Shown here: positions 5,726-62,483 of the stretch, in pieces | Position numbering within the stretch: position 1 is the stretch's first letter | How the letters are laid out: every line of letters starts with the position of its first letter | NCBI GenBank assembly: GCA_964016885.1 | Contig: OZ024743.1 | Coordinates: 368,094,001-368,158,000, forward strand | Direction of reading: 5' to 3' | DNA length: 64,000 nucleotides | From: Eledone cirrhosa | Lineage: Eukaryota | Translations under genes and position numbers: made by a program | Notes under the pieces: generated by a model | The model's input: only the letters and a program-made list of their open reading frames with translations | Told to the model about the DNA's origin: nothing | The model's database searches: none

Positions 5726-5762
<37 letters not shown>

Positions 5763-6263: not shown

Positions 6264-6308
6264 ATTATATTTGCAAGCTGTGGGACTTAGTCCTATAGGA
6301 TAGAAATA

Positions 6309-6388
6309 GCGATCTGATGAACTTTACTTTTCCGTTAGAAATTCTCTGAATTTCTAATCTTTTGTAAAGCGAAACCGCCGGTAATAGC
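6309..6388 (+). ncRNA. Type I hammerhead ribozyme motif with long stem II (slightly degenerate)
   Basis: gcgat-CTGATGA-a ctttac...ttagaaattc tct gaatttctaa...gtaaag c-GAAA-cc gcc gg-TA-atagc. Core boxes intact, stem III acc/ggt, one mismatch in stem I, A-C at the 10.1/11.1 pair. Confidence 0.75.

Positions 6389-9391: not shown

Positions 9392-9421
<30 letters not shown>
8450..9421. repeat. ~970 bp compound (TA)n/(TAGA)n/(GA)n microsatellite
   Basis: Visible directly. It drifts from TA-rich to TAGA to GAGA units and accounts for the spurious YI-repeat ORFs. Confidence 0.97.
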
Positions 9422-9422
<1 letters not shown>

Positions 9423-12081: not shown

Positions 12082-12099
12082 TATGCTGCTTGATGATTT

Positions 12100-13260
12100 T
12101 GATAGTAAGGATGAGCAAATAAAGACATACAATATAGAGGAGCAGTAGGAATTCCTGAAAGATAACCTACTGAAGGTGACAAAGAAAATCTATGGTTGAA
12201 TAAAATCTAGGGAGAATGATAGTGGAAGAGACAATTAAGGCCAAAAGACAGACATGGAAAGAAGGGCATGATGGAGGAAGTAGATCCCCCCCCCCCACCA
12301 TAATTTTGATGGCAAAAAAGACTCCCATAGGTAGATGGAAGGATGGACGAAAGCCATATGGACATGAGAACAATGATCAGATGAGAAAGATTATCGCACA
12401 TACAGTAGGGGCTAGTGTTAAAACTACCTTAAAGGGCCACATGTTCACTGAACTCAGGTTACACACTATAAACAAGAAAGCCCAAATCCTCCACTCACAT
12501 TATGCAAACCCATGGCCTCCAAATACCTAATACACAAAAACTCAGTGATGTCCAATAGTGCTAAGTTTAATATCCTTAATCACAGACTTAGTAAGAGGGA
12601 TGAAGAATGTGTCTTGCATGTGTGATTCAAATGAACTTTAGAGACAAATACAACACTTCATCAATTGCATGCAGTTTTCTGGCTACAACCAAAGAGACAG
12701 AATCAGGGTGTACAAAGGGGCCGTGGTGAAATATAAAACCCTTATAGTGATGGGCATGAAATGGAATAGCATAGATAGGACTAGGCAAAAGATAGGGAAA
12801 TCCAACTTTTGGTACGACAACCAGAGATATCAGTGTCATGTTTGTGGGCCGTGGATGCAACCCCTGGAGGTAAACTAGCTAACCAATTTAGAAAGGCCTT
12901 AAGAAAGACCTATTTAGATATTAAAGTGGTAGATAACCCAGGAACTACCATAAAATCCCTGATCAGTAAAACTTACCTCTTTAAGAAAACCTTCTGTACA
13001 AATAAGAGACGTGTAATATGTAAAGTAAGTCCACAAATAAATTGTAAAACTAGAAATGTAGTCTATAGCATAAGATGTACAGAGGGTGCCTGCAAAAACA
13101 TGACAATGACATACGTAGGAGAGGCAGCCCGTAGCATAGGAGAGAGGATAGATGAACACTAAAGTGAAATAAAAGGACAAAAAGACAATTCAGTACTATA
13201 TGAACACGCCAGACTAAGACATAATGGTGATATAGACAACATAGAAATTAAAATAATTTT
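12100..13260 (+). mobile_element. Degenerate Penelope-like element, 3' part (RT C-terminus + GIY-YIG)
   Basis: CKTRNVVYSIRC...TYVGEAARSIGERIDEH is a GIY-YIG signature. Many frameshifts; the 5' boundary is approximate. Confidence 0.75.
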
Positions 13261-15225
13261 AATGATTTATTTTCTACTTCAAGTCCAGGTATTTTATGTC
13301 CTGGGATTTTATTGGGCTACTTTAATGCTACTTTGTTAGTAAATATGGCTAAGGTGAAAGATGAACATTTGCTGTGTAATCTCCATTTGACCAATGCAAG
13401 AATATATCAAATGTTGTTTGCATTATATTTTATGAAAATATATTTAAAAACACAAAAACCTTAAGTTCACAAAAAAAGAGAATTATTTTAACAGCAATTA
13501 TTCCATAATTTAATGCTGTTGAAAATTTTATATAAAATTTAATAGAATTATAGAATTGAGAGGTAATTATTTGGAAATATTTTCAAAATCTGCTTCAGGA
13601 ACAAGGTGATAGACCAGTTTATTCTGTTATTCTGGCTTGCAAGTTATAGAGTTTAAAGTGTTAACAGCTGCCACCAACCACCTCTATATTTAAACTTTAA
13701 TTAATCATAATATAATTGATAATTTATTATGGAATTATATAATATCGCTACACACACTGAACTAAAAGGAATGGAATTCATTACTAATACAGTAAGGCAT
13801 ATGGATAATCATTAAAAATATAGCAATCTTGAATTAGAACCCAACTAGCTGTGTGTTTGTTGAAAATGACACTGTTCAAAATAATAGAACATTGGAAAGT
13901 GAAAGAGGAAGTTTTATGCCCAGAAATCTCAATTGCACCAGAAGTAATATCTCTTCTCTGAGTTGTTTTAATTTCCTTTGAACTTCCACAAAAATAAAAA
14001 TATTTATAGAAAAGTTGAGTGGTTTATCTTTTTTGCAGAAATTTTAGACTAACATGAATGATATTTGTTTCTCTTACAGCGTGGACTGGGTGCTTTTTGT
14101 TGTGACAACTACATGGCCACTTTACAGGGCGCTCACACATCCTTTTTAAAAATATCTGTTATGAAGGAATGGTTTAATTACAAATTATAGTCTGACAAAG
14201 AAAACCTGTTTCATGAACCTTGTATTCTATGAACTGATTTGGATTTGAAATACCTCTCTTTCTTCCTGTAGTTCTTTTTATAACTCCTTTAATTTTCATA
14301 TTGAAGGCATTGCATTTTTAATATTTCTCAAGAAACCAATATTCTAGTTTATCGATTGATGATATTTATTGTTGTTAGTCTTACACACTGCTCTTTTAAT
14401 TTTTTCTTGCTTTGGTAATTGTGTTTATTATGTGCTTATATATATATATATATATATCCCCATTGTGATCCTGTCTTTATTTGTACTCCTAAAGGGCTTA
14501 AACCTGACATCTTGATCTTTCTTTCCTCTTTCCAATATAAAACTTGAAACTAATAAGACTTTTTGTACCTCTGTTTGTTGTCTCCTTGAACTACACGCAC
14601 ACGCACACTCTCTGATAAAAGTAGATTTTCTAGTAATGGATGATTTCAACTGTCCTCTTTATAAGGTCACCTGACTCTGCTGCAGCATGAAACCTGTCAT
14701 TATGATGTGTCAGTTCAACTCTAGTAGTCTCTCAGATAAATCTCCCATTTGGATTAGGACTGAACTCACACCGATGAAATGTTATGTCAATACTAGTTGT
14801 GTAATATTTGGAAAAAAAATGAAATGATTACTTCTGAGATCGAGATATTAGCTACAATATTTGGAAATAATGTGATGAGGATTAGACAAGACAATCCTCT
14901 ATAAGAGTGTGTTAAAATTTAGAGGAAAATTGTTCTTATAACTTTACTGTGAGTCAAGAGCTGTGAAAAAAAAACTTGCTGAATAATTAATGGATTGCAG
15001 CTTCAAGTTGGAATTGCAGATTAGTAAGAACCAAATTCATTTATGACAATGTTCTATCTTAATCAATTTTAATTTTAACCTGATTATTTTAGAATTAATA
15101 TAAAGGCTATATAGAATATTATATGCTAAGAAAAGTCTTAAAACTTTAGAATATCTGCTAAAGTAAAAATAACAGTAGCTTTAAAAATATTTTATACAAA
15201 GACAACACACATCTTTTTCAAGACA

Positions 15226-17625
15226 TTTTTCTGGCTTCCAGTATGCGGAAACTCGCAATGGGGGGAGTGGACAGCAGGATCTTCAGAGGAAGAACTCCCA
15301 CCAAGCAAGTGTTTCAGTCCTTGATTCTTCCTGACACTTTAAGGGAGCCAGGCCCACCCAGACCATGACTCTTAGGTATCCTCCTGTTGTTTTTCTCCTC
15401 CAGTAGGATATGAACCCAGAATCTTCCAGTGATCTTGTTACTCATTCCTGTAGTTTACACCACTTGGCCACAAAAACAATCAGTAGAACACATCACGTCT
15501 ATTTAAACAGCAATCCTTCTGTCTTGGCTCCAGTTGTCATTCTTATTTGACCATAGCCACATTGAACTTTTCTCAGCTGTCTCTGGCAGGCGTGTGATCG
15601 TTGCTGTCCTTTTCTGACCTTTGATTCCAAACTGACCTAGTAGTTGGGACATGGAAGCTGTGATAAATCCTCATCCACCAACTTCCACTGGCTTCATTTT
15701 GCATTAATTCCCCTCTTTTGTCATGTCTCTGGCGATGTCTTCACATTTCCTCATCTTGTACTCATGTTGTTCATCTACACAGCCCTCATAGGGGACTGTC
15801 ATCTCAACCAGGATAACTGTGGTTCCTGCTTCTGGCCACAGGAAAATATCTGGTCTTTGTCCTTTCTTACTAATGAATTTGGGGTAATTCTTATGCTAGT
15901 CTGTGAGATCAGCAGATATTGCCCAATCCTCTTCTGTCCAAGTACAACTTCATGGCATGGTATCTTTTTGGATCCACTCAATTTCTTCTCATACTCTTTT
16001 GTTATGACGGTTAGGACTGAATCAGTGGTTTCGAGTTGCATCTGCTCCCAGATTGACTGAGTCAACTTTTCTGGTATTCTGTTGTGCTTTCATGGGTATC
16101 TGCCATTGGCAAGAGATAATTGACATGAACTTGCACAGAGAGCAATTAAGATCCTCCTCTTTAGCCCATTTCACAAGGTTGGTCTTCGATGGGAGTATGT
16201 CATATTACCCTGTGTGGTTCCATCTGCCACACATCTTTCCATGCGGCCTTTGCAATGCCTAGTCTCAATTCGTCCACTGACCCTCTTAGGACTGCTAAAC
16301 TGCTTTTGTGTACCTCTTTTCAGGTCACAATGGTCCTTACCTGTAGTTTTTGACCACCATTATATTTTTCTCATGCCTAGATCCTGACTCCCTGTCTGAG
16401 CAATTCCAGTGATTTCTTTGTGGACAAGGCTTTCTTTAGCATTAACTATGGCATCCTGGACCCTTGACTTCCTCTGTCTTTAGAGTGGGCTGTACTTCTT
16501 TGATTTTTCCATCTTGGGAGTCTTCTAGCATTATCTACAGTCTTGTCTTTCCAACCTTGTTTTCTTCTACAGTGGATTAGAATGGCAACTTTAATTAGCC
16601 TGTTGCCAGTACAGAGCTACATCAGTCAGCCCAGGGGGTACACTGAGCCACTTTCTGGTGAATCAGTTTTCATCTCTGTTGTCTCAACTTTGCTAGTAGT
16701 AATCTCGTATAAAAGCAGAGGCCATGGCTACATTGGTATAAGCATGTGCTGGAGGTACCACACCTTGTATTTCCCTGGCAATGGGCAACAATTAATCTTA
16801 TTGAGACCTTTGGCTGTGTTGTTAGCTGTCTCTTTCACCTGTTTGGTGTCTTTCAAGGAATCATTTTACCATCTCACCAAACTGTTCACTAGCTCTTCTG
16901 ATACTGTTGAGATTTTTTGGCTGCCAATTTCAAAACTGGTTCCTTGGCTTACTTTCCCTTTCTTTGGGGAGAGGCTTCTGAACTTTGATTTGAGTCATCA
17001 GTCACTAATTCATCAGATCATCACATTGACTGAGTGGACTCCGTATCTCAGACTCTTTGATGCCAAGATAGTGGTGTCATCCATGAAGGCTTTAACTGGT
17101 GGCATTTCACTTCCTCCACCCAGCTCCACTGGCTTTGCCTTGTTTTCTGTATGTCTGAGTTGCAATTGCATTGCCAGAACAAAGAGTATTGGTGAAACTA
17201 TGTATCCTATTGTGATTCCCACTTCAAGTTGATCCCAATTGGTTGTGAAGTTTCTGGTGCTGAACCACATCTTGAATCCATTTAAGCATTTTGCATATCC
17301 TCTCTGGAATGCGGTACATCTGGAGAGACATTTGTATCATGTAGTGAGGTACAGAACCATAGGCATTCACAAAATCCAACCAAATCACATTCAAATCTGT
17401 CTTGCTCTCTTTCACTCTGGTTAGCTTTCCATATCATGCTCCTGTATTGCAGGCAACTGCCAACTCCAGGGCCTCTGCCCATCTAGATGGATGTCAATAT
17501 ACCCATTGTTTAACAGATAGTTGGTTAGTCTCAATGCCATCACTGTAAAGAATAGCTTTCCTTCTACATTCAAGAGTATTGGACAGAATTGGCTGTCTTC
17601 TGAGTACTGTTCCTTAGGGATGTCC
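15226..17625 (-). mobile_element. Degenerate RLE-type LINE (Hero/NeSL-like)
   Basis: Fragments ILLNVEGKLFF, VIWLDFVNAYGSVPH, GITIGYIVSPILFVLAM and KAFMDDTTIL. The 3' UTR matches 38880-38990 in reverse. Clade assignment is inferred from motif style. Confidence 0.75.
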
Positions 17626-18329
17626 ACCAAATATGCTTTCACATATAAGCTGGTAGCTAAAACAATATAGGGTTGTGGATATTTTTCTTTCATTCATAAT
17701 TGTTTCTATTTTGTTTATATTAACAATACTTCATCTAATTCTAAAAATTATAAAGATGACTTTTACAGATGTCTGTAGAATTTAAATCTCTAAAATTGCA
17801 AACCAACTACTTGTTGTTGGCTTCGTTTAGGTTGACATAGTCCAAAGTTAGTGGTGTTATGTTGAAATCTGCAGATTGTTAAATAATTTGGAAAATTGTC
17901 CCCCCCCCCCCCCTCCACACACACACACACTCCAATATGTTTACGTAACAAAATGTCATTTTTGTAACAGGAATAACAACTGTAAACAATGTTTTGTTTT
18001 GGTAAGAGATACATTGAATTTTTGTTTCATAAAGTATTGTAGCTAGGCAATATCAAAGTAGTTTCTGACTTAATTTAGTTGTGATTATTTTTATGTTTTG
18101 GTACTCAGTTGTACACTTGGGATCAGCATTAATAAACCTTTAAAGATTAAGTACCAAAGATGGGTTGTTGGTGAAAATAATTTTGTTGATTGTCTGTGAT
18201 ATATAGTCTGTGGTTGTGTTGTACAGAACAAAGAATATATGTGATCTTTGTATCTAGTCAAACATTAGGATTATCAGTTATATTGTTTGTTCATTATTAG
18301 GGTTTGGGGAATTGAAAACTGCATATGAA

Positions 18330-20578
18330 TCAATAGGTCGCACTTCTTGTAGTACTTCAGCAACAATTTGTATCGCCATCTGGAGATCATACTATTGAAT
18401 ATGTGTTTTTGTAGAGCATCATAATGGCTTTTACTATTTCACTTGGTATACTGTATGTTAGCAGTATTTCTTCTATTTTACCACTATCAATCAAATCGAA
18501 TTGATAGTCCTCTTTGACAGACATTTTAATTTTTTTCTCAATACTTTTTTTGATTTCTGGACAGATGCAGTTAAGCAGCATAGTGTTAATAATTTTTGCA
18601 GCTATTGTTGTTTTTGCCACACCAAGATCTCCTTTATTGTGGAATGTTTCTATATTGTTTTGATTATATACGTCATTGCAAAACTTCAGGTGGTATTTCA
18701 TCAAGGCAAGGGGCTCTGTTCAATTTCCTTGTTTTTAGAACAGCATTTGTAAAGCTTCCACATTTGATATTGAGTTGCTCTGATATTTGTTGTATAGGCA
18801 TATCAACTATGTTTGGAGGTTTGCCAAGGAGATTTTGGAAATGATTTTTCCACATTTGTAGCCTTTCTTTTTCACTTGTTGCTTTGAGATTTGACTTCAT
18901 TGGTTTTTTTTTTTTTTTCCACTGATTATATTGATGGTTTGCCAGGCTGCAGCAGATTATTTATTTTCAATTGAGGATTGAACTAGGTTAATTCTTTTTT
19001 TTTTTTTCTGCTTACACTCATTTTCAACTGCTTGATATGTATCAGATAGATCTTTCAAAGCTTCTTCATGACATTTTGTATTGCTTCTTGTGGGTACTTT
19101 ATACTTTTATTCTGCAGCTTTGAATATTTGTCTCTTTTGTCTTATCTTTTGGTTTTCCCATGGAACATGTTTTCTTATTTTAGGTTTTATTTGAATATTC
19201 TCTTCTGTAGCCTTTTTATGTGCTTCGATAAACATCTCATATCTTGTGTTTGGTGTTACATCATTGGATATTTGAAGGAGAGAGCTAGAGCTATTTCTCT
19301 CTGACATGGCATATCTGTTGCAAATGTTTGGATTCCTTAGGGCAGCCCAGTCATAATTTTTGCAGTTGGTTCTCTGTACTTTTTTATTTTTTCAAAAGCT
19401 TAGTTGAGTCATTGCTGTAAGTATCTTAAGGTCAGTGGTGAAACCACAGCAAGATCTGTAAGCCACACAGTTTACAACACTATTAATCCATTTACTGTTT
19501 ATAAACATGATATCTAGCTGCACCTTAGTACCATTTGGATTCCTTTTCTTTTCTGAAATTTTGTATTTAAGCAAATGAGTCCATTCTCTTTTATGTATTC
19601 ATATAGGTAGTTTCCATTTCTATTTATAAGTGGATGTGATGTGTATCTGTACGTAAGATATTGTCCAAGGTGTACATTCATATCTCCACTAACTATTTTG
19701 AGATTATGTTTGGGTATATCTCTAGTTAGGTTTGAAAGGCTGTCATAAAATTCAGCGACATCCTCTTTCAGTAAGATATTTGTGGGACTAACATGAAATG
19801 ATTGTGAGTTTTGAATTACCATTAAACGTTGTTAGTATAATTTTAGGATGAACTTTTTCAATACAATTTAAAGCATTCATTGTGCGATTGTTTTGTATCA
19901 TTCCTACACCCCCAATTGTGGAATTGATTGAATTCTTTCATGCTGAGGTTGAAACTATGGTTCATCCTTTCTCATATTCTTGATATTTATGATCAACATT
20001 TGAATTGGGAACTTTAGTCATAACAAAACTTTCATTAGCTGATTACACAACCATGGATGCGATCCCTATGGATGTGTTGCAGTAACTCTCTTGATAGATC
20101 TTGGTGTTCCTGACCGTTGATCATTTAGGATCCCTCTGCTCAGCATCAATGTGAGAGGCACTGTTGGCTCCGTTGTTGAGCTCTTCCACTGTCTCTTCAC
20201 AATCCAACATGCTGCAGTCCCATGGCTTTGCCGTATCCCTGGCAGGGTGGCTGAACAGGTACTATGTCTTGCCAAAGGGCACATATGCAGATATACGAAA
20301 ATACATAAAAAACATACACAAATATAAATATAGAAAATACACACAAATATAAATACATACAAATATATAAAAATATATAGCTAAATATACATAATATACA
20401 TGTATACAAATTATTGGATGGTCATTGACTCTCCTGAGTTGCCCTATTCTTTGACAGGTTTTGCGTTTCATCCTGCAGGGTGTTCAAAAATCACCCTCCT
20501 GACCAAGCAAGCTTGGTGTGGTTGCTGGTTTAGTCACCACTGACTGTATTGAGTTCTTTCTTGTATAGATACAGGTCC

Positions 20579-20580
<2 letters not shown>
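18330..20580 (-). mobile_element. Degenerate RTE-clade LINE (5' UTR, APE, start of RT)
   Basis: APE motifs GDMNVHLG, NRNG.YL...GLICLNTKFQK and QLDIMFIN; RT-proximal RAPCLDEIPPEV. The 5' UTR end resembles ~58300-58345. Confidence 0.75.
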
Positions 20581-20636
<56 letters not shown>

Positions 20637-20637
<1 letters not shown>

Positions 20638-21368
20638 TGGCTGAAGTCCCAGCTTCGCCCTGGAGAACAGTTAAAGACAGATAAAAGAGAAAACGACTGT
20701 ATTGGATGTGTTGTCTGGTATGAGGTGAGACCGTAATCTGTGTGTGAGACAGACATAAAAAAAAAACAATCATAAAACTTCCTTATTAGGCTGGGGGAGT
20801 AAACTGCTGATTAAATGGTAGCATTGGCCTTGGATTTTAAATGTGAAATAACCATAGTCAGTATGATCTTTTCAGCTGCAAAAGACGTCATCTGAAATTC
20901 AGCAATATACCGCATAACATTGCTTCTAAAGTGTTGCTTTGTTAGTACAGTCTGTAAGTAGTATATGGATAAAAGCTGGAGACTAGATTAATTTCAAATA
21001 GTATCAATTTTTCTTTGTTCTGTAAAATCAAAGACTGTAAAACGACATTATAAAAGCGAACACAATATTGTTACACCTTCCTATAGATCAAAGGATCTAT
21101 AGTTTAAGTTGATTCTAGACTTTTGTGGGACGTTACACTCTCTCTTTCTCTGAATATCTAACACTTTAATTGTATTTCTCTCTGTATAAGAGCCTATCTC
21201 TCTCTTTCTGCGTCTCCCTCTGTGTCAATCTCTCTTTAGATGTATGTGTTTGTATTTGTGTGTGTGTGTGTGGTTAAACATCTCTTCAGGCTGAAAGCAA
21301 TGATTCTTTGCTTAAACTTTAATCTGTTATTTTAATAAATATTTGCTCTATGGTTTTTATATATATGA
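20637..21368 (-). mobile_element. Probable non-autonomous Helitron (degenerate)
   Basis: + strand a|ctggctgaagtcccagcttcgccctgg resembles a reversed hairpin + CTAG 3' end (CCAG variant). Other end ...tttttatatatatga|t gives a TC start. Flanked by (TA)n. Confidence 0.5.
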
Positions 21369-21442
21369 TATATATATTATCCTTATCGAGCCCTCTTCGG
21401 ATTTTAGTCTTCACGTTTATTATTATTATTATATCTATATAT

Positions 21443-21627
21443 GGGCGGTGGATTGGCAGTATCTGTAGAGTGTCGGACGCCATGCTTTCCAGCATAGTTA
21501 CGTCCCTTTACGATCTGAGTTCAAATCCCGCCGAGGTTGACTTTGCCTTTCATCCTTACGGGGTCGATAAAATAAAGTACCAGTAATGCACTGGGTAATT
21601 GCTGGCCTTGTGCCTAAAGTAGAAACA
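21443..21627 (+). mobile_element. tRNA-derived SINE family A, full length
   Basis: Box B gagttcaaatccc. TSD attattatatctatatat at 21425-21442 and 21628-21645. Confidence 0.88.
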
Positions 21628-21775
21628 ATTATTATATCTATATATATATATATAGATATATATGTGTGTGTGAATGAAGTAGTTCCGTCGGAAAGGTCCA
21701 GGAAAAAAGAGTGCCCTATGTAGGTTACAGAGCTTAATAGTTATTACATAACTATATATATATATATATATATAG

Positions 21776-22369
21776 ATAAATAAATAGATATGTATTGGAA
21801 TTTTGTATTTCAGAAAAAATACGGTATGTTTAAAATAAACATTTAGAGAGCTGTAGCTATGCCAAAACACCAGTGACTAATGCCGTCTGGCAGTGTCCAG
21901 CAGAAGCAAGGGGGACAATCGTGGATGCGCATTTCGAACTGAACTGGTGCTCATCAGCACAATCCCTCCCACCCTTGCAACTGCTGGACTTTGAAAACAG
22001 GCGAGAATATATGGCTTTGTCGTCTGTGTAAATGAGGTGATTAATCTCATTTGCATATGAAGCTGTATAAGTTGACTCAACTTATAATAGAATAGAATTA
22101 CAATTTAGCTTCAGGCATAGTTGTATACAGCTATGTTTTGGAATTTTGTATTTCAGAAGAAATACGGTGTTTGAAATGTTGAAATGTGCATCCACGATTA
22201 TCCCCCTTGCTTTTGCTGGACACCGCCAGACGGCGTTAGTCGCTGGTGTTTTGGCATAGCTATGGCTATCTAGATGTTTATTTTAAACATACCGTATTTC
22301 TTCTGAAATACGAAATTCCAATACATATCTGTATACAACTATCCCTGAAGCTAAATTGTAATTCTATTT

Positions 22370-22370
<1 letters not shown>
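21776..22370 (-). mobile_element. Non-coding hammerhead-bearing element (~343-nt monomer + inverted arm) in (TA)n
   Basis: Direct repeat ggaattttgtatttcagaa.aaatacggt at 21797 and 22140 (period 343). The inverted arm 22178-22370 matches 21786-21939 and continues into the complement of ~22089-22130. Hammerhead at 21917-21964. Confidence 0.75.
21917..21964 (-). ncRNA. Minimal type I hammerhead ribozyme
   Basis: Minus strand gattgtg-CTGATGA-gcac cagttca gttc-GAAA-tgcgca-TC-cacgatt. 7-bp stem I (two G-U), intact core, palindromic stem III (ATGCGCAT), AUC cleavage triplet, one mismatch in stem II. Confidence 0.85.
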
Positions 22371-22401
<31 letters not shown>

Positions 22402-24311
22402 TGCGTGTATGTTCTTATATGGCTTGCACATACATTTGCATATATATATATATATAAAAGCCCATAAATAGATATAAAATCTATAATAATATATATAAAA
22501 CTGCATAAATAGTTTACTAAGTATTGATTAGCTTATTGACCTCAGAGTATTTTATTTTTCTGCATGCTACATTTCAGTGTGTATTTTGTGTGATCACTTT
22601 TACATATCACACCTCATGATATATACATATCTTTGGCTTAAAAATATCTAAATATTTCTTGAGCCCAAAGAAGGCTATATTGACTAGTCTTTAGCTCTGG
22701 AGACATGATGTTTATTTTATAAAGTTTGAATTACAAAATAAAAATATCTGCAATGAATTTGTACTACACATCTTTAATCTGGTAATTTAAAATTATACCC
22801 ACTCAGCCAATCTAGTTGTGCATGTTTTGTATAATATTGAGCTCACAATCCTTTTATAGTTAGTTAATTCTCCACTAATATTTACCCTAACCAACCAAGG
22901 AAAGAGTCTCTAAACAGTTTCACTTGTTGAAAATAGCAACCAAATCTTCCTGAAGCTACATCAAAATATAATTCAGGAAGAATATGACATAGGTGCATCA
23001 TTTGTGCACAGTCTACCCAGAAGATAGAATAATTTGAAATTGCACACACACAACAACCACCACCACCATCATCATCATCATTTGTAGGACTTACCATGTT
23101 GAAAAAAAAATCCAATATCAAAATTGAAGAACACAAAGTTGTAATCAGATGCTAATCAATTATGTCAGGATTGGCACAAGATGTAAATTACATATATAAA
23201 AGAAAATGACATATCACAAATGGAATAAGATTTTCATTTAGACAAACACAATCAGCAATCTCAGACTAGTCTAGAAGAAAGTTTAATATGGCCATTTATA
23301 CAAAAACAAGTTAAAATGGTATTAAAATTGATATATTCCTGGATTACAATAAATATTTGAACTTAATTCTAGTTATAGGATTTGTGTGTGGGTCTGGATA
23401 AAACTAATAACATTTGATAAATTAAAATATAAACACATGATGTTAATCAACAATGTATACACATTTATATCAGAATTTCAAATACATGAATATTAGATAT
23501 TTCATATAATATATGGGATTTTCATGATTTTAAAAATGATTTTCCTATTTGAAAAACTCATTGCTTTAACATTACTCATTTGTATGAAGGTTAAACTAAT
23601 GACTGCTCTTCATAGCACCAGCCAATCATAAAATTAGGAGACTGATTCCTTTATTTCTTATACTGAAGTGACATAATAGCATGCAATGTAAAGGGCAAAA
23701 TTCAGAACCCAAACAATCTAATGATGGTCTGCATTGACAACAATTTGATCCACTGAAGATTTTATCAAAAAGATTGAGAAGTTCAATTGACGACAACATT
23801 TTCTTTATCTCTCATAAAGAATAAGACCAAAACATTACATTCCTTACCCTTCACAGGAGTGTAACTTATTGAACACTTCTACAAACTCTCCTATGCGACA
23901 CAAAGACTACAACTTAAATTTGAAATTATAATCCAAAGGTCATAACACTTTAACAATATAACTTTATTTGTGAATATAGATATATTTTATTTTGTTTTGT
24001 TAGGCTGACTAGTAAGAATTGTACTCATAATCAAAAGTGTTACAATTTGCAGACAGTGATATACTAATTGAGTTTTTTTTAAGAAAGAATTTGCTTTCTT
24101 TTCCTTGTATTCTTCTAGTGTATGTAGTATAATTAGCCATAATAGTAATTATTTGACTGGCTGATAAAATATTTGATGATAATCTTGCTGGTGCTGTTTC
24201 CAAGTGCAGAATGTCTCCAGTGAACTCATTTAATTCACTGTTGCAAAAGATATTTTAAAATATAACAGTTAGCATTAGTCTATATAGAATCAAATGTCTT
24301 AGTTGTTTCAT

Positions 24312-24618
24312 GCTTTTAGTTTACCATTCCTAAAGACACTGATTTTCATTCGATCATCAGAGTTAAGCAACATCAAACTTGGTTAGAACTTATGTGAGTA
24401 TCCCATTAGGCAACTGAAGTGCTGAAGCCATCTACATAAGCCAACATGGTCGCTCGATTTACCAGAAATAGCTAAATCGCCCTTAAATTATACCCATCTT
24501 GAAAGGGGGAGATGCACAATTGATGCTTGAAAGTAAAGTTCAGTGGTCATGTTGTAATGCCTTTAATCATAAGGTCTGCTCAGTTAGAGCTGATCTGACT
24601 TGGTGCTCAACAATAATA
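24312..24618 (+). mobile_element. Degenerate 5S rRNA-derived sequence, probably the head of a SINE3-type element
   Basis: aaagacactgattttcattcgatcatcagagttaagcaacatcaaacttggttagaactt...gtgctgaagc aligns by eye to metazoan 5S (…TCTCGTCCGATCACCGAAGTTAAGC…GGTTAGTACTT…GTGCTGTAGGC). It is followed by ~190 bp of body that loosely resembles 39030-39230 (-) and an aacaataata tail. Confidence 0.65.
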
Positions 24619-25204
24619 TCATTGTTATGCTATGCTGGAGAAAGCTCACCCAACCTATGGAAAAACAGATGTATGATGATGGTTACTTCTATTAAACACT
24701 ATGGGTGGACAGCACAGCTTGAAGGAATTTTGGTTTAAGGTTTAAGCATTACTTTATAGTAATAATTTCAATATTATATATACTATATTTACAATGGAAA
24801 AAAAATAACACTTATGTGTTTATAGACATTTGTCTGACTTTTGTGCATGTTTTCTTTTATAGGGTTTAGCTTTTTGAACATGTAATAAATATTTTTCATA
24901 ACTTTTCTCCTTTATAGACCAACACAAATGTCAACTTTTAGTTTTGTTTTAGTTACAGTTAGAAATTTGTGCTGATAAAAAGTTTTATGCATGCAGATTT
25001 TATGCAGTGATGGTAAAAAATATGCTTATAACATTTCATATAGATATAGCTACACTTCCTTCTTTTCACAGTGAGACTTCTAATTCAATAAACTGTACAC
25101 AGAAAGAACATAAAAGATTATATTTACATGTTTCAGAGATGTTTGTCTCTTCATCAGACGATAACTATACCTATGATTCTACCTTTTATCTACATGGAAC
25201 TAAA

Positions 25205-25260
25205 TAAAGTACCAGTAATGTACTGGGTAATTGCTGGCCTTGTGCCTAAAGTAGAAAGAA
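25205..25260 (+). mobile_element. 56-bp 3' stub of SINE family A with 19-bp TSD
   Basis: TSD ttatctacatggaactaaa at 25186-25204 and 25261-25279. Confidence 0.85.
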
Positions 25261-25965
25261 TTATCTACATGGAACTAAAGTAACATTTAAAATACTGTAA
25301 ACAATTATTTTTAGGTGGTCAGATTTTCTTTATAAAATGTATCACAGCCAAATAATTCTCCACATAGTAATTTACCATCTTTTGTCCATGCTTTCATTTG
25401 TTTGGGATTTCAGTACATTTAATACCAAGAAACATTGTTAGTAAAGAGTAAACCAATAAAAAAAAAAATGATAAAGCATCAATTCAGTGCTTCTTTGAAA
25501 AATCAGTAAACATTCTCCAATCTTCTACTTTGTATGTGATTCTAGTTTGTTCAATTATGTATTTGATATTTTACATTCCTCTTGCTAAAGAATTTTATGA
25601 ACACATTCTCTTTGCAAATGTAGTTTCGTTTGTGATCAGGTTTTTCCATTTAAACTTGATCTTAAGACATTATTTAAAAATCAATTAAAAAAGTATTTTT
25701 TTAGGTAAATAAAATGTTGTAAATGATAGATATTTTAGATTGAGTTAAAATATAAAAAGGATATACAAAAATTGAAGCATACAGTAACTTTGCAAACAAG
25801 TAAAAGTTTTTAGGAAAGTACACGAAGAATGATTAAAAACATTTATTTCAATAAAAAGAGAAGTGTTTCATACAATTTAGAGTTATTTGTACTCCAGAAA
25901 ATTATACACTCTAAAGCCTGACCAAAATTCAATATTGTCAAATTTATATATATATATATATATAT

Positions 25966-26090
25966 TATAGAGTAAAGCATGTCCAGAGAATTATTTGATA
26001 ATATATATACATCATCTCTTGAGCCACATCGTGAAAAGTTGCCAAAACACATATATACCTGTGACTTTGTTTAATTGGTGCATGTGTAAA

Positions 26091-26095
<5 letters not shown>
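25966..26095. repeat. Small inverted-junction fragment of the same family as 27204-27863
   Basis: 25966-26015 resembles 27305-27360 directly; 26016-26095 resembles the reverse complement of 27204-27280. Flanked by (TA)n. Confidence 0.6.
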
Positions 26096-26134
<39 letters not shown>

Positions 26135-26137
<3 letters not shown>

Positions 26138-26455
26138 GTGACTTAATCAGCAGTGGAGGAGAATTCTCTGAGAACATAATAGCTAGAATAAGGACAGGAT
26201 GGAAGATGTTTAGAGAGCTACTCTCACTGTTGACAACAAAAGGTTTTTCTCTAAAGTGCCAGGAACTGCCAATGGATGGAAGCTGCAGTAGAGGTAGACC
26301 GAGAAAGACCTGGGCAGAGGTGGTGAGAGCTGACGTCAAATTGCTGAAACTCAGAGGAGATGGCAAAGAAATGTGGTCAGTGGAGAGATGCTGTGCTGAA
26401 AAGGGCCCATCCAACCCATGCAGGCATGGAAAAATGGACATAAAATGATGATGAT
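26135..26455 (+). mobile_element. RTE LINE 3' fragment, internally deleted
   Basis: RIRTGWKMFRELL and RGRPRKTW motifs; tail catggaaaaatggacataaaatgatgatgat. Confidence 0.75.
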
Positions 26456-27203
26456 ATATGTTGACTAAATTTTGGACCATCTGCAACCTGCATAATACCG
26501 TCTGCATATTACCAACTTTGTGAAATAGCAACTGATGATGATGTGTCCAACTTACGCTATTCTTATGTAATTATCATCTGGTGCCTCTGAAATGTACATA
26601 AGGATCGTCTTTCAATAAAAGTATGGAAAAGTACAACCAAATTTTCATATTTATTTACACTATATATCAACACTGTTTAATATCTATTTTCCATGCTTTC
26701 ATGGGTTGGATAGGTTGTCTCGTGTTGAGGCTAGACTGGCCAGGTTACCATGTCCTGCCATGCACTCTGTTGTGGATTGGGTTCTATGGCTGGATGCCCT
26801 TCCTAATGCCAACCACTTCACAGCATCTACTGGGAGCATGGTTTCTATGGCTGTGTGCCATTTCTAATGCCAGCCATTTTAAACTGTCTACTGGGAGCAT
26901 TTTATCTTGTCTTCATTATTACTTTACAGGGTGAACTAGGAAGTATTAGAGCTGGTGCCAAGACGAAAAGCACCATATATGAGCTAAATTCTAACAGATA
27001 TTTTTTCCAATTCCAACCCGCCCGTCCCCTCAATCTATCTTATTTCTCATTCTTTCTTCTGATGAAAGACTAGCATCTGAAACATTAAGACCCTCTTCCT
27101 GCTATATCAAGCATTAACCTAATATATCCCTTCCATATACTGTACCAATTGTGTTGTTATTTCTGTTTCCCTTTTACATATATATATATATGTATATATA
27201 TAT

Positions 27204-27859
27204 AAAGATTTACATATACACAAACTAGACAAAGTCATAGATATGTTTTTGGCAACCATTCACGATGTGGCTCAATGATGAATTAATAAATTAAATAATC
27301 AGAGCAATATACTATAAAGTATGTCTATAGAATCATTTGATAATATATATATACACCATTTCCTCTCCCAATTAGCATAATCAACCACACAAAAAACCAA
27401 TTAAACCAGGCTATAAGATTAAAAGGCACCTATGAAGAAATAATAGATAAATAAACAACAGCAATTTATTCGCTATCAACAGCCATAGAATATTTACCCA
27501 GCATTTCAATAGCACGTGGAAATCGATTAAATATATCGTTAGGTATAACATTAAAGTTAGAAGAAAAAATGCATATACACATACCAGGATTACGTTTCTA
27601 CCCCTTAGGGTTTCGTTCGCTTTCGGAAATATCCTATCAAGGATAAATTCTCGAGCTTCGAACTCAAGAAACAAACTCACTTGGACAAAGACTTTTCTTA
27701 AATGATCGTGAATAGATGGCTGTCGTTTATTTATCTATTATTTCTTCATAGGTGCCTTTTAATCTTATAGCCTGGTTTAATTGGTTTTTTGTGTGGTTGA
27801 TTATGCTAATTGGGAGAGGAAATGGAGTATATATATCTTATCTATGGACATAATTTATA

Positions 27860-27863
<4 letters not shown>
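27204..27863 (-). mobile_element. Non-coding element with inverted arms and a decayed long-stem hammerhead, in (TA)n
   Basis: Inverted repeat ~27308-27483 / ~27708-27863. Minus-strand hammerhead scaffold at 27594-27672. (TA)n on both sides. Confidence 0.65.
27594..27672 (-). ncRNA. Decayed type I hammerhead motif (core truncated)
   Basis: Minus strand gtttc-ttga-gttcg...(tatcc ttgata ggata)...cgaac-GAAA-ccc taag ggg-TA-gaaac. Stems I, II and III pair well, but the CUGANGA box is reduced to UUGA. Confidence 0.55.
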
Positions 27864-27903
<40 letters not shown>

Positions 27904-28068
27904 TATTTACGTATCGAGAGAGAGAAAAAAAAAGGGGGGGGGAAGATAGGTGATACATATAGTTATTTGCCAAGTAGCGTATGTCAAAGGTGCTCGATAC
28001 TAGTGCCGGCAGTATTAAATATTCAAAGTGTTAATATTTAGTGGTCTAGAGAATTAGCAGAGCGTAAG

Positions 28069-29157
28069 CACGTGGGAAAGTAAGAAATCGGAGAATAGAC
28101 CGTTAAAACATGTTTATTTAAAACTGCACCTACGTACGTTTCGCCCAGTTGGGCTTCTCAAGCGCATAAATAATCAAAAGTGTTCCTTACATTGCTCGGA
28201 AAGAGTTTTGGAGGTTAAATCCACGTCAAGGTTCATTGCTCGCAAAAATAGCTTGTTTTGATTTTGCAGCAGGTCAAGGGAGGTAACTCTGGCCGGTGTT
28301 AGGGTAGTCTTTCCCGGACAAATTTTTTTATCCGCTACAAGATGAGGTTACAACCTTACCATTGTCGATACGCATGTAATCAACACTTATTTTGAGAGTT
28401 TTTTTTGCTGCATCTGTTTGTCTGAGTTGTTTGAGGCTGGGTCTGGTATGCAAGGATAGTTCCCTGGGTGTTCTTTTGCAGCGCCTGCCTTCTGGGGTGT
28501 TAAGACTTGTTGCAGGGAGATCCGGTGCACAGTTTCACTCCTCATCCTTAACCCATCTGAAGAAGGATATTTTTAAGTGATGTGTACAACTTATCGCTGT
28601 TTCAGCACTGCTGTTGATGAGCTCGTGGGGTGCAGTTATGATGTGGTAGAGCTCCATGAGGCAAAGATCGCATTTCCTCTTGAAGTTGTACGGTTCAGCC
28701 CTGCCGACAATATTCCAGTGCGTGGAGAAGCTGATGTTTAAGTCCTTTAGTGATGTGATGTAGTCCGCGAGCGAAGTGGAGTGTCTTAGTTTTTTATTTG
28801 TGAAAGAGTGGAGATGTGTTTGAAACCTAATTTTGAACGGGCTGGAGGTAGCCCCTATATAATGTTTAACGCTATTGTGGCTAGTTATAGTGCATTTATA
28901 TATAACCCTATCAGTCAGGCAGCGTCCTCTGTCGCGGCAGTTGCAATTTCTGTCGCGGTTCCGTCTATTTCCCACAGTAAGGCCATCATTGTTGCTGCCT
29001 ACGTTGTTACCCACGCTACTGCAGCTGTTGTTAGCACCATTACAACCCACAGCACGCGGGGTGGTGCGATTGTTATTCCGCACGTCATGTCCTGCATGTT
29101 CGCCAGTCATTTCGCGGTTATGCTGGTTGCGTCTGCGGATGCCGTTGCCAACACTAT
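28069..29157 (-). mobile_element. Inverted copy of the 3' end of the Penelope-like element (GIY-YIG + 3' UTR)
   Basis: Reverse complement of 31035-32126 with scattered substitutions and small indels. Encodes VIYKC...HYIGATS..FKIRFQTH. Confidence 0.92.
28125..28166 (-). ncRNA. Minimal hammerhead motif (U3-A8 variant) in the inverted Penelope arm
   Basis: Minus strand tgcgc-TTGAGAA-gccc aact gggc-GAAA-cgtacg-TA-ggtgca. Confidence 0.7.
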
Positions 29158-32126
29158 CCTTACTGGACTCCTTTGAAGAGGATCTACTGAAAATGATCAA
29201 AAACGTTATGTTCAGAAAGAAACACCAATGCAGCAATCCATTCTTAACGTCCCTTGATACACTAATTACTAAGATCAAGAATGACCCGCACCTCTTCGTC
29301 ACCTCCGACAAAACCAAAAAGCTGTACAAGATGGACGCGAGTAAGTATAAAAAATTCATCTATAAGGAACTACACAAAGACTACAAAAAGACACCCTCTA
29401 GTACCCTAAATGACATAGAGTAGGGAAGGATATAGTCACCAGCTTAGAAATAGAAAAGTACACTAACCCGTACGTCCCTCTGACGCCTAAATTCTCTCTT
29501 AAGGATCACAAATATGACTTTAATGAAAGCCCCTCTATTAGACTAATATGCCCCTCTACATCAGATATAGGTAAGATTGTAAAGTGATCCTCGACAGAGT
29601 ACTACTGGAGCTTAATAGAAAGGCTAAGGTCTGCTTCTGGGGCAACACCGACCAGGTCATAAATTGGTTCACCGAGTTGCCGGATAAAGCCACCCTGAAG
29701 TTCATCCAGTTTGACATAGATAGTTACTATGCCTCTATCTCCCTCATACTCTTAAATAAGGCACTTATCTTAGCTAATTCTAACACTAGCCTCACTAGAA
29801 AAGAAATTGACATAGTTTTAGCGGCGCATAGAACCATTATCCAGTTCGAAGGCTCCCAGTGGACCAGAACCAACCGTCCTGATAACTTCGATGTCACGAT
29901 GGAGTCCAGTGACTCAGTGCAAGCAACTGACCTGGTCGGGATATATCTCCTACATAAGCTTAGGGAGGAGATACCGGCCCTACAAGGTGTATATAGGGAC
30001 GACACCCTGTTTACCGTTAGGAACAATAGCCCCCGTAGGATAGAGAACCTTAACAAACATATACACAGGTTCTTCAAGTCATACGGCCTATCCGTAACTA
30101 TGGACCTCAACCACAAGGTTGTCAACTTCCTGGACGTGACCCTAGAGTTAAGTACGGGCTTATACAAGCCATACCATAAGCCTGGAGAGTGCCTCTCTTA
30201 TATTAATTATGCCTCCAACCACCCTAAGCAGACTCTCAACTCCATAGTCTATAGTATCTCACATAGAATCTCGAGACTCTCCGCCAATGAGGATATCTTC
30301 AACCAAGCGGCAGATTACTACAATAGGGCCTTGATAAGCGCCGGCTTTAACTGAGGAATTTCCTACATCCCTAACACTAGCTCTAGAAACCACCCCCCTC
30401 ATAAAACGAACATTATAGTAAGCCATACCTATAACCGATCATGCGGCGACCTCATTGAAGTCGGATATAATAGAATAGATAACCGCACTAAAGATCACGA
30501 CCCCGGCGACGGTGACCACTGTAGATTACTCGAACTATTCCCCTATTACAAAACCAACAAAGGCGACGGATTACTACCAACGCCTTCCAACCAACATCTT
30601 CCTGTACATAAACATGGAAGAGGTAGAAAGAGTGCACCCGAGCATAAAGTGAAAGGGGCACCGAACGGGCGACTGCGCACTAACACACATAAGAGCGGTC
30701 ACTTAGATGGAACCACCCGTAGCAAACGTACAAGGACACGTAATCGCCACCGTAACGTCCTATGGTTCCACCCCCCCCTACTCTCGGAGTGTGGCCTCCA
30801 ACATACCCCGGTTGTTCTTCGAAGCCTTAGAGAAGAACTTCCCGCCCAACCATAGGTATAGAAAAATTATTAATAGGAACAATATAAAAATATCCTTCTC
30901 TACTGCTCCTAACCTAGCAGACATCATAGGAACAACGAACCACAGTAAGATCACCAAGACACAGCACCTCGACTCAGACACACCTACACCTGACAATAAC
31001 TATATAGGCCTTAACAACTCCCTGGCAGCATCCAATAGTGTTGGCAACGGCATCCACAGGCGCAACCAGCATAACCGCGAAATGACTGGCGAACATGCAG
31101 GACATGACGTGCGGAATAACAATCGCACCACCCCGCGTGCTGTGGGTTGTAATGGTTCTAACGACAGCTGCGGTAGTGTGGGTAACAACGTAGGCAGCAA
31201 CAATGATGGCTTTACCGTGGGAAATAGATGGAACTGCAACAGAAATTGCAACTGCCGCGACAGAGGATGCTGCCCCCTTAGAGGATACTGATTGACTGAT
31301 AGGGTTATATATAGATGCACTATAACTAGCCACAATTGCGTTAAACATTATATAGGGGCTACCTCCGGAACGTTCAAAATTAGGTTTTGAACACATCTCC
31401 ACTCTTTCACAAATAAAAAACTAAGACACTCCACTTCGCTCACGGACTACATCACATCACTAAAGGACTTAAACATCAGCTTCTCCACGCACTGGAATAT
31501 TGTCGGCAGGGCTGCACCGTACAACTTCAAGAGGAAATGCGATCTTTGCCTCATGGAGCTCTACCACATCATAACTGCACCCCACGATCTCATCAACAGC
31601 AGAGCTGAAACAGCGATAAGTTGTACACATCGCTTAAAAATATCCTTCTTCAGATGGGTTAAAGATGAGGAGTGAAACTGTGCACCGGATCTCCCTGCAA
31701 CAAGTCTTAACACCCCTGCGGGCAGGCGCTGCAAAAGAACACCCAGGGAACTATCCTTACATACCAGACCCAGCCTCAAACGACTCAGACAAACAGATGC
31801 AGCAAAAAAAACTCTCAAAATAAGCGTTGATTACATGCGTATCGACAATGGTAAGGTTGTAACCTCATCTTGTAGCGGATAAAAAAATTTGTCCGGGAAA
31901 GACTGCCCTAACACCGGCCAGAGTTACCTCCCTTGACCTGCTGCAAAATCAAAACAAGCTATTTTTGCGAGCAATGAACCTTGACGTGGATTTAACCCCT
32001 AGAACTCTTTCCGAGCAATGTAAGGAACACTTTTGATTATTTATGCCCTTGAGAAGCCCAACTGGGCGAAACGTACGTAGGTGCTGTTTTAACGGTCTAT
32101 TCGCCGATTTCTTACATTCCCACGTG
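29158..32126 (+). mobile_element. Penelope-like retroelement, 5'-truncated (RT + C-terminal GIY-YIG), pseudogenised
   Basis: SDKT motif, FIQFDIDSYY, YRDD, VNFLDVTL, YINYASNHP, WFHPP, CNCR..CPL and VIYRC...HYIGAT. Several stops (some CGA>TGA-like) and frameshifts. Confidence 0.93.
32045..32084 (+). ncRNA. Minimal hammerhead motif (U3-A8 variant) in the Penelope 3' UTR / pLTR
   Basis: gccc-TTGAGAA-gccc aact gggc-GAAA-cgtacg-TA-ggtgc. Palindromic stem III ACGTACGT, GUA triplet, imperfect stem I. Confidence 0.72.
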
Positions 32127-32361
32127 TGTATATATATATATATATATATATTTCGTTTCTGAATTTGTTTTGCAAGATTCTTTATCTGAAAACGTGTGTT
32201 GAAACCGATATTGTTATACTTTGGGAGGGTCATGTTGCTAATAAGAAACACACACACCAGTTGCTTTCACTTCAATTTATTATAATAAATTTATAAATTT
32301 AGGAATTTATAAATTTCCGGTTGGTTGGTTGGTTCCACAACCAGATGATTGTTTACATATT

Positions 32362-32404
32362 GTCAAAGTTCTTTTGTCACACATTCTGTGACCTCTTCAG
32401 TGAC
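32362..32404 (-). ncRNA. Degenerate minimal hammerhead motif
   Basis: Minus strand gtca-CTGAAGA-g gtcaca gaatg tgtgac-aaaa-gaac-TT-tgac. Stems I and II and the first box are intact; GAAA is mutated to AAAA. Confidence 0.5.
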
Positions 32405-32801
32405 TGGGGATTCTTTTCTTTATTTTTGTGCCTCTCCTTTGTTCTGTCCTACGCCATCTTGTTTTTGTGTGTGTTGTGTGCTTAGTTTGCGCATGTGTTA
32501 CATCCGGGTGTCTGTATGTGTTTATATTTGTTTATTTATTTGTTTATTTACATGTTACTGGTTGGTTGTTTGTTCTATGTGCGTGTGTGTTTTCATTTTG
32601 TTCTTAATTGTAAGTTGTGATGTTGCTGTTCCATTCATGTTTTCTATTTAATTTTGGTTGGAGTTTATTTATGTTTATTGCCTCTGATTTGTCTAAACAT
32701 TGCGTCTTTTCTGTGTGTAGATTCTATTTTTATGTTCTATTTTAGCATGTTGGTAGAGTACAGATGATTCTTTACTATCTTATATATATAATATAATGTA
32801 T

Positions 32802-33185
32802 GTGAAGGCGCATGGCTTAGTGGTTAGAGGAGTAGGCTTGCAATCGAAAGGTTGTGAGTTCATTTCTCGGACCGAGTGATGTGTTGTTTCCTTGAGCAAG
32901 ACACTTTATTTCACATTGTTCTAGTTTACTCAGCTGAAAATGAGTACCAGCAATAGCTGGAGATTTAACCCTGCGATGGACTGGCATCCTGTCCAGGGGT
33001 AGTCTTGTACTCCGTCGCTTCACGCCATGAAACCGGTATAAGCACCGGCCAAATGCGCCATCTGGCTTAAGACAGACTTTAGACTTACGGCCTGCCCGCT
33101 CAGCCAGTGGGATGGTGTCATCGTATGGCTAAAACAGCACGTACCGTGACCAGCGGCGCCTGACAGACTGGTCGGTCAAGGTGAT
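32802..33185 (+). mobile_element. tRNA-derived SINE family B, full length, alternative tail
   Basis: tRNA-like head ggcgcatggcttagtggttag...gtgagttc and a CORE-like segment ccttgagcaagacacttt. TSD atataatgtat at 32791-32801 and 33186-33196. Confidence 0.85.
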
Positions 33186-33489
33186 ATATAATGTATTTCT
33201 TCTGTTTCCTTGTATTAGATGATAATGGAGGTTTGTGGCTTAGTGGTTTGGATGTTGAACTCGCAATCAAATGGTTGTATGTTCTTTTCTCAAATTGGGT
33301 AGCACATTATGTTCTTGAAAAAGACACTTGATTTTGTGTTGTTTTTCATGATAGGACTGGGCCCATTATCATTAAAACATCCAATAAACCTTCAATATTA
33401 TTGCATCTCATAGGAGGCCAGCTAAGCCTGTATATGGGTGAGCTATGAATAATTATTTTTCTTTTTACATTTCATTTTTCTCTTTTTAG

Positions 33490-62403: not shown

Positions 62404-62483
62404 TACACACATACAGATATATGCAATAACACATCCACACATATATACATACACACACACACACACATATTATTGTTATTATT

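What the first reader, a model, noticed from the sequence alone, without database searches (positions are those of the whole stretch)
21776..22370. Best-preserved unit: 343-nt permuted monomer with a canonical minimal hammerhead
The minus strand reads gattgtg CUGAUGA gcac-cagttca-gttc GAAA ugcgca UC cacgatt. The core is intact, the triplet is AUC, and stem III is palindromic (AUGCGCAU), a feature that allows dimeric cleavage in minimal hammerheads. The segment ggaattttgtatttcagaa..aatacgg recurs 343 nt apart, so the insertion covers slightly more than one monomer, plus a ~190-bp inverted arm. The ribozyme is antisense to the + strand host gene.
Basis: partly seen in the sequence, partly recalled or inferred. 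Interest (0 to 1): 0.75.

Follow-up and report, generated by a model that had tools for sequence, protein, structure and literature searches.

The report
Decayed Penelope-footprint hammerhead retrozyme copy
This is one aged intronic copy of a dispersed 343-base non-coding repeat with a hammerhead-ribozyme motif and the two-armed, TA-repeat insertion shape of Penelope-type jumping genes, which likely copied it; this copy's own ribozyme is predicted to misfold, so it is most likely an ordinary fossil of a known kind.

Summary
The sequence description is right: hammerhead core at 21957 (minus strand), AUC site at 21924/21923, 343-nt period, about 195-nt inverted arm, antisense in a 39-kb intron of an F5/8C + laminin-G gene. 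The unit belongs to a genome-wide non-coding family: 263 exact core matches, 4 hammerhead-to-hammerhead dimers by pattern, no sampled copy longer than 1.8 units. Copies have two fixed 3' ends about 45 nt apart, variable 5' ends, back-to-back arms and (TA)n targets, which is the published Penelope-like-element footprint. Subfamilies keep the hammerhead fold through compensatory changes. The motif is a canonical type I hammerhead, not a 'minimal' one. The permutation is not free. This copy is not well preserved as a ribozyme: a substitution seen in 1 of 54 aligned domains breaks helix II, the fold costs 11.5 kcal/mol (median 4.25), the arm can pair with the ribozyme's 3' half, and one hammerhead cannot release a unit-length RNA. 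Cleavage, expression and circles are untested. No autonomous partner was found in 72 endonuclease loci. Verdict: new member of a known kind; modest interest.

The parts
21753..21774 (.). (TA)n target tract, left side
21790..22132 (-). One complete 343-nt unit (40% GC, non-coding); its 3' end is at fixed site A, near 21788
22133..22177 (-). 5'-truncated start of a second unit (partial tandem, about 45 nt, 89% identical to the 3' end of the unit)
22167..22186 (.). Inversion junction with a short duplicated TTGAAATG; present letter for letter in a contig at single-copy depth
22181..22326 (+). Inverted 5'-truncated arm: begins in the GAAA of the hammerhead (3' half only) and runs through the 3' hairpins; 12 differences in 146 nt from the main arm
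22327..22374 (+). About 45-nt tail extension, present on this end only; ends at fixed site B
22370..22400 (.). (TA)n then (GA)n tract, right side; no target-site duplication resolvable outside the TA repeat
21917..21964 (-). Type I hammerhead: helix I 21964-21958 with 21923-21917; CUGAUGA 21957-21951; helix II 21950-21936 with the C-U mismatch at 21949; GAAA 21935-21932; palindromic helix III 21932-21925; predicted cut between 21924 and 21923
   Evidence: sequence confirmed in a contig at single-copy depth
21897..21987 (-). Long irregular extension of helix I (90% of cells paired across 54 copies)
22038..22059 (-). Block conserved between 66%-identical families, with a perfect ATGCAAAT octamer (22056-22049) and TAATCA; also forms a hairpin; role unknown (promoter or RNA element)
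21799..21844 (-). Two small 3' hairpins including the motif AAATGTT..AAACATACSGTAT, shared with at least two sister families (3029 genome matches); candidate recognition signal
1..33489 (+). Host intron (about 39 kb, starting 5.6 kb before the window) inside the F5/8 type C domain of a Caspr/neurexin-IV-like gene (name inferred from the domain order F5/8C-LamG, recalled)

Best explanation
This is an aged, dispersed copy of a 343-nt non-coding hammerhead repeat (an animal non-LTR retrozyme) that was likely inserted by the borrowed reverse transcriptase-endonuclease of a Penelope-like element, and this copy's own ribozyme is predicted to be inactive. Shown: the unit, the family, two fixed 3' ends, 5' truncation, back-to-back arms, TA targets, and neutral-looking decay with CpG loss. 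Inferred by analogy with the in vitro Penelope work (PMC11167929): the protein nicks both strands of AT-rich DNA and primes reverse transcription at two internal sites of the RNA (A and B; the 45 nt between them is the tail). One strand's cDNA ran about 390 nt, through the ribozyme cut site and past one full unit; the other ran about 195 nt; the two 5' ends were then joined back to back. The template therefore spanned the cut site: either a circle made by hammerhead cleavage of a dimeric transcript plus ligation (my lean, about 55:45) or an uncleaved longer-than-unit transcript. In founder copies the ribozyme likely cut as a dimer through the palindromic helix III. After insertion this copy acquired a helix II substitution, and its arm can pair with the 3' half of the ribozyme.
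For: 3' ends: 49 at site A and 44 at site B of 127 segments in 86 loci, against about 8.5% and 9.3% expected if uniform; 5' ends scattered. Of 31 back-to-back pairs, 14 have both outer ends resolved: 11 A+B, 2 B+B, 1 A+A. (TA)3 beside 32 of 49 A ends and 27 of 44 B ends against 12% background. The same anatomy occurs in protein-coding PLEs of this genome and in PMC8557442 Fig. 2. Hammerhead constraint: the helix I closing pair is GC in 21, CG in 14 and UA in 2 of 54; helix III palindrome kept across a 2-nt deletion, ATGCGCAT 16 and ATGCAT 12; a 66%-identical sister family carries the U3-A8 core at the same position. Decay: 5.5% and 6.0% non-CpG divergence, 12-16% at CpG. This copy: A-to-C at 21949 in 1 of 54, fold penalty 11.5 against median 4.25 kcal/mol, 150-bp arm duplex that sequesters the ribozyme in the minus-strand fold. 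Template spans the cut site: 98 of 127 segments read across it and 54 exceed one unit.
Against: No autonomous PLE sharing the unit's 3' end or tail was found in 72 GIY-YIG loci, nor a shared PLE ORF upstream in 88 loci carrying the 3' motif (one PLE fragment 0.8 kb upstream in L302 is not shared by other copies). Among the 30 closest domains there is no covariation (372 of 500 shuffles as high), and the subfamily signal rests on few events in related sequences. No A-to-G strand bias marks an RNA intermediate (61/3724 against 72/4189, p 0.79; 98/4688 against 126/5027, p 0.18). There is no pile-up of 5' ends at the cut site (3 against 6.3 expected). The sample is not random: best hits to the window unit favour ends at site A, and the AT-rich unit ends inflate the TA count. 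Folding penalties are model predictions.
Confidence: 0.82

Rival explanations
1. Non-autonomous PLE derivative copied from linear, uncleaved partial-tandem transcripts. The hammerhead is an inherited pseudo-LTR feature and no circle is involved.
For: No long arrays were seen: maximum segment 616 nt, only 4 core-to-core dimers by pattern. [quoted passage not shown] No editing scars.
Against: Repeated 5' truncation should shorten linear sources, yet 54 of 127 segments exceed one unit (the sample is enriched for long copies). The hammerhead fold is kept through compensatory changes across subfamilies and families. The unit is predicted to fold stably as a circle (z -5.5).
Confidence: 0.4
2. The unit is the truncated 3' end (pseudo-LTR) of a protein-coding PLE not yet found, as for many hammerhead islands in animal genomes.
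For: PMC4209133 interprets most single hammerheads as truncated PLEs. PLE families are abundant here (10595 and 54267 candidates) and only 72 loci were read.
Against: Upstream of the hammerhead, copies return to the unit's own 3' end rather than to coding sequence. No flank beyond the unit was shared in the family loci examined. The longest ATG-ORF in the insertion is 59 aa.
Confidence: 0.07
3. This locus is a functional, domesticated ribozyme or antisense regulator of the host gene.
For: It lies in an intron; the + strand pre-mRNA can form a 150-bp duplex between the arms, a possible editing substrate (inference).
Against: The full ribozyme is on the non-coding strand; the host-sense arm holds only the 3' half, locked in the duplex. 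Substitutions look neutral and CpG-driven.
Confidence: 0.04

Closest known systems
Animal non-LTR retrozymes (Cervera and de la Pena 2020, PMC7229834; Li, Clavereau and Pollet 2026, bioRxiv 10.64898/2026.07.22.740005)
   Same: Canonical type I hammerhead with short palindromic helix III, 343-nt unit, 40% GC, no ORF, head-to-tail junctions, dispersed monomers as described for Xenopus, co-occurrence with PLEs.
   Different: Almost no tandem arrays (4 dimers by pattern, at most 1.8 units sampled). Inverted arms and two fixed ends are not described in the passages read. Expression, cleavage and circles are not shown here. This locus fails the preprint's two-hammerhead criterion for 'active'.
EN+ Penelope-like elements and their non-autonomous derivatives (Craig et al. 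2021, PMC8557442; Frangieh et al. 2024, PMC11167929)
   Same: Partial tandem, inverted 5'-truncated copy, tail at one end, (TA)n targets, hammerhead near the 3' end, two internal start sites.
   Different: No RT or GIY-YIG ORF. Tail about 45 nt against 30-40 nt reported. No sequence link to an autonomous family found.
PLE minimal hammerheads (Cervera and de la Pena 2014, PMC4209133)
   Same: Conserved core, G10.1-C11.1, palindromic loop 3, U3-A8 covariant in a sister family.
   Different: This motif has a helix III, a 4-bp helix II and no extra base after position 9, so it matches that paper's canonical class.
Newt satellite 2 (snRNA-type internal promoter, cited in PMC2220036; the original paper was not held)
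   Same: About 330-350-nt hammerhead unit; a conserved octamer here recalls it (octamer in satellite 2 is recalled, from no call).
   Different: Not a satellite. This genome's U1 and U2 genes carry no octamer within 320 nt and show no significant match to the unit.

Membership tests
Animal non-LTR retrozyme | Type I hammerhead, canonical helix sizes | tested here: met
   helix I 88%, helix II 92%, helix III 98% of cells paired in 54 domains; this copy has 3 of 4 helix II pairs.
Animal non-LTR retrozyme | Unit 150-450 nt, GC under 45-50%, non-coding, no LTR | tested here: met
   343 nt, 39.7% GC, longest ATG-ORF 59 aa.
Animal non-LTR retrozyme | Tandem copies with two or more hammerheads | tested here: inconclusive
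   Family: 4 dimers by exact pattern, 5 of 86 segments with two cores, no long arrays seen. This locus: one hammerhead, not met.
Animal non-LTR retrozyme | Loop I - loop II tertiary contact | tested here: inconclusive
   U after the 6-bp helix I in 54 of 54 and loop-2 terminal A in 53 of 54; assigning these to the reverse Hoogsteen pair is recalled (PMC6155905 passages name the pair, not the positions).
Animal non-LTR retrozyme | Self-cleavage and expression as linear and circular RNA | not testable with these tools
   Needs in vitro assay and RNA data.
PLE-mobilised element | Partial tandem plus inverted 5'-truncated copy | tested here: met
   22 of 59 and 10 of 27 loci with inverted segments.
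PLE-mobilised element | Tail at one end (two fixed 3' ends) | tested here: met
   11 of 14 resolved pairs are A+B.
PLE-mobilised element | AT-rich or (TA)n target | tested here: met
   59 of 93 fixed ends beside (TA)3 against 12% background; partly inflated by AT-rich unit ends.
PLE-mobilised element | 3' similarity to an autonomous PLE | tested here: inconclusive
   None in 72 GIY-YIG loci out of more than 10,000 candidates.
Autonomous PLE | RT + GIY-YIG ORF | tested here: not met
   No ORF in the unit or in shared flanks.
PLE minimal hammerhead (min-HHR) | No helix III, long helix II, extra base after position 9 | tested here: not met
   Helix III present, helix II 4 bp, no extra base.
snRNA-type internal promoter | Elements shared with the host's own snRNA gene promoters | tested here: not met
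   10 U1/U2 upstream regions: 0 octamers, best p 0.065 against this unit. U6 was not examined.

The most novel reading that the evidence does not exclude
This unit is one branch of a clan of self-sufficient retrozymes (at least three families in this genome) built on one plan: an octamer-containing internal promoter, a hammerhead on a long stem, two 3' hairpins and a tail hairpin that together recruit a Penelope protein to copy a small RNA circle from both strands of a TA-repeat nick. The conserved blocks would define the minimal signals for transcription and for PLE-driven mobilisation in trans.
Probability: 0.25. Interest if true: 0.55.

Novelty: new member of a known kind. Interest (0 to 1): 0.25.

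Why it matters
As a locus it matters little: a decayed intronic insertion. As a family it adds genomic evidence to a proposal that the papers read make but do not demonstrate, namely that animal retrozymes are moved by Penelope-like elements. Its two fixed ends match the two start sites measured in vitro for a Penelope protein. Comparing diverged sister families points to short conserved blocks (octamer block, 3' hairpins, tail hairpin) that can be mutated in an existing in vitro assay. Younger families in the same genome, noted by earlier unchecked findings, would be better test material than this copy.

Tried and rejected
Rfam scan: no hammerhead hit at E up to 1. RNAalifold on 30 close domains predicted no pairs, and pair counts there showed no covariation; signal appeared only when the second subfamily was added. 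RNA evidence: no RNA holder listed; the three runs are contigs of one sample of unrecorded kind, possibly the assembly's own, so they only confirm the sequence; their depths were not used as copy numbers. A-to-I editing scars: none. Linear cleaved monomer as template: rejected, since 98 of 127 segments cross the cut site and 5' ends do not pile up there. snRNA-type promoter: not supported for U1/U2. Partner PLE: searched 72 GIY-YIG loci and 88 loci with the 3' motif, none found; the matches in L032 and L036 are separate insertions lying beyond or against the PLE. Tail motif shared with PLEs (lead from earlier findings): 2 hits in 72 loci, one a sister-family insertion and one unrelated. Target-site duplication: unresolvable in (TA)n. 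Trans-cleavage of the host pre-mRNA via the arm: considered and dropped because the arm is predicted to be duplexed. Literature: searches for hammerhead + Penelope + octopus, retrozyme + cephalopod and hammerhead ribozyme + octopus listed no description of this family; Repbase/Dfam and the supplements of PMC8557442 and of the 2026 preprint were not seen and may catalogue it. Rows dropped before counts: duplicate loci (14, then 15 and 22 in later calls), BLAST segments under 68-72% identity or under 45 bits, and 3 of 57 domains with large indels left out of alignment A2.

Full report
Observation. On the minus strand the core CTGATGA starts at 21957, GAAA lies at 21935-21932, and the AUC site falls between 21924 and 21923. 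The marker segment recurs at 21797 and 22140, 343 nt apart. The insertion reads, left to right: (TA)11; a minus-strand arm of one unit plus about 45 nt (21790-22177); a junction with a short duplication; a plus-strand arm of about 195 nt (22181 to about 22374) that starts inside the ribozyme's GAAA and runs through the unit's 3' end into a 45-nt tail; (TA)n(GA)n. The ribozyme stretch and the junction are both present without differences in contigs at single-copy depth from one public sample, which may be the assembly's own. The element lies in a 39-kb intron: the start of an F5/8C domain sits 5.7 kb before the window and its continuation at 33490, in matching splice phase, followed by LamG exons. 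The ribozyme strand is antisense to that gene.

The family. The unit is a dispersed repeat in a 3.0-Gb animal genome: 94 matches among 40 scored of 3370 candidates, 263 exact hits of a 27-nt core pattern against 0 for the control, 4 core-to-core dimers. In the loci examined no flank beyond the unit is shared and the longest segment is 616 nt. There are two main subfamilies, differing at 20 columns. The window's subfamily has a G-C pair closing helix I and AUGCGCAU as helix III; the commoner one has C-G and AUGCAU. Across 54 domains the closing pair is GC in 21, CG in 14, UA in 2, GU in 3 and unpaired in 14, and the covariation score exceeds 500 of 500 shuffles. This reflects few events in related sequences, and the 30 closest domains show no covariation. 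A third family at 66% identity has a hammerhead at the same place with the U3-A8 core covariant described in PMC4209133. The fold was therefore under constraint in source elements, while inserted copies decay: 5.5% and 6.0% at non-CpG sites, 12-16% at CpG.

This copy. It differs from its subfamily majority at 13 positions. One of them, at 21949, is found in 1 of 54 domains. It breaks the second pair of helix II and lets the core pair with the helix III palindrome; the hammerhead fold then costs 11.5 kcal/mol over the minimum, against a median of 4.25 and 1-2 for the best copies, and only 4 of 58 core-intact domains are as bad or worse. In a transcript of the whole minus strand the inverted arm pairs with the ribozyme's 3' half. 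With one hammerhead the locus cannot release a unit-length RNA by double cleavage. These are predictions, not assays.

Insertion footprint. Among 127 segments in 86 loci, 49 end at site A (the end of the unit) and 44 at site B about 45 nt further on, against 8.5% and 9.3% expected; 5' ends are scattered. Of 31 back-to-back pairs, 14 have both ends resolved and 11 of these are A+B, as in the window. TA repeats lie beside 59 of the 93 fixed ends against 12% background. The sample is biased towards complete copies and site A. PMC8557442 (passages read) describes exactly this for Penelope-like elements: partial tandem, inverted 5'-truncated copy, a 30-40-bp tail at one end, (TA)n targets. PMC11167929 (parts 1-2 of 4 read) shows in vitro that a Penelope protein nicks and extends both strands of AT-rich DNA and starts at two internal RNA sites whose interval is the tail. 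Protein-coding PLEs of this genome show the same anatomy.

Mechanism. Inferred: a PLE protein bound the RNA near the two 3' hairpins and the tail, primed at A on one strand and at B on the other, and the two truncated cDNAs were joined back to back. 98 of 127 segments cross the cut site, 54 exceed one unit, and only 3 5' ends fall near the cut site (6.3 expected), so a linear cleaved monomer was not the usual template. A ligated circle and an uncleaved longer transcript both fit. The scarcity of long genomic sources and the conserved ribozyme lean towards the circle proposed in PMC7229834 (passages and Discussion read). The dispensability of cleavage in PMC11167929 and the absence of editing scars here lean the other way. 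The partner is not identified: none of 72 GIY-YIG loci shares the 3' motif or tail as its own end.

Unexplained. The block at 22059-22038, with a perfect ATGCAAAT, is among the best conserved stretches between families (84% over 38 columns against 66% overall; octamer in 43 of 55 and 8 of 11 copies) and has no subfamily difference. Part of the family sample was selected on this region. It also forms a hairpin. An internal promoter, as reported for newt satellite 2 (PMC2220036, passage only), is a lead, but U1 and U2 genes here carry no octamer.

Comparison and verdict. It works like, and on the testable sequence criteria belongs with, animal non-LTR retrozymes, which the 2026 preprint (parts 1-3 of 5 read) derives from PLE pseudo-LTRs. 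The hammerhead is canonical rather than minimal by PMC4209133 (parts 1-2 of 4 read); PMC6155905 was read in passages. My literature searches listed no account of this family, but repeat databases and supplements were not seen. Earlier unchecked findings in this genome describe several younger families with the same footprint; I had the two-end pattern before reading them, and they are not independent support. New member of a known kind; this copy is a likely inactive fossil. Interest 0.25.

Noticed in passing
window 28118-32092: Near-full-length Penelope-like element with RT and GIY-YIG pieces (several stops and frame breaks), 823-nt inverted arms (96%), and a U3-A8 hammerhead variant in each arm (28161 minus, 32049 plus). 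A very abundant family (54267 candidates; some copies with a 927-aa open frame). Same two-armed anatomy, no similarity to the 343-nt unit.
   Followed up: partly
window 25157 (minus) and 27059 (plus): Two further hammerhead-like motifs. The one at 25157 has a 5-bp helix II and a palindromic CAUG loop; no second copy was found among the fetched loci.
   Followed up: partly
L032:2440-2870, most of L112-L161: Sister family of about 310 nt with its own hammerhead (longer palindromic helix III), sharing the 3' motif and tail plan; it makes up most of the first 100 of 3029 motif hits. May be one of the 310-nt families in earlier findings; not checked.
   Followed up: partly
L273-L302: Third family, about 345 nt, 66% identical to this unit, with a U3-A8 core, GUC triplet and variable palindromic helix III; keeps the octamer in 8 of 11 long copies.
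   Followed up: partly
L162-L198, L182 (U1 and U2 genes): Upstream regions share a TTACCTCCCT-like element near -260 and a TCAGT(G/A)GAT-like element near -57, with no octamer: candidate snRNA promoter elements of this lineage.
   Followed up: no
window 21436-21632, also 6072, 25202, 35295, 39432, 55632, 56271: Copies of a very abundant short repeat of about 200 nt (SINE-like; label recalled), one 120 nt from the insertion.
   Followed up: no
window 9700-12020, 17000-19800, 49900-50800, 57046-57654, 61570-63550: Decayed LINE-type RT/endonuclease fragments (by reading the translations; not searched).
   Followed up: no
window 8447-9422: About 1-kb (TA)/(TAGA)-type microsatellite tract.
   Followed up: no
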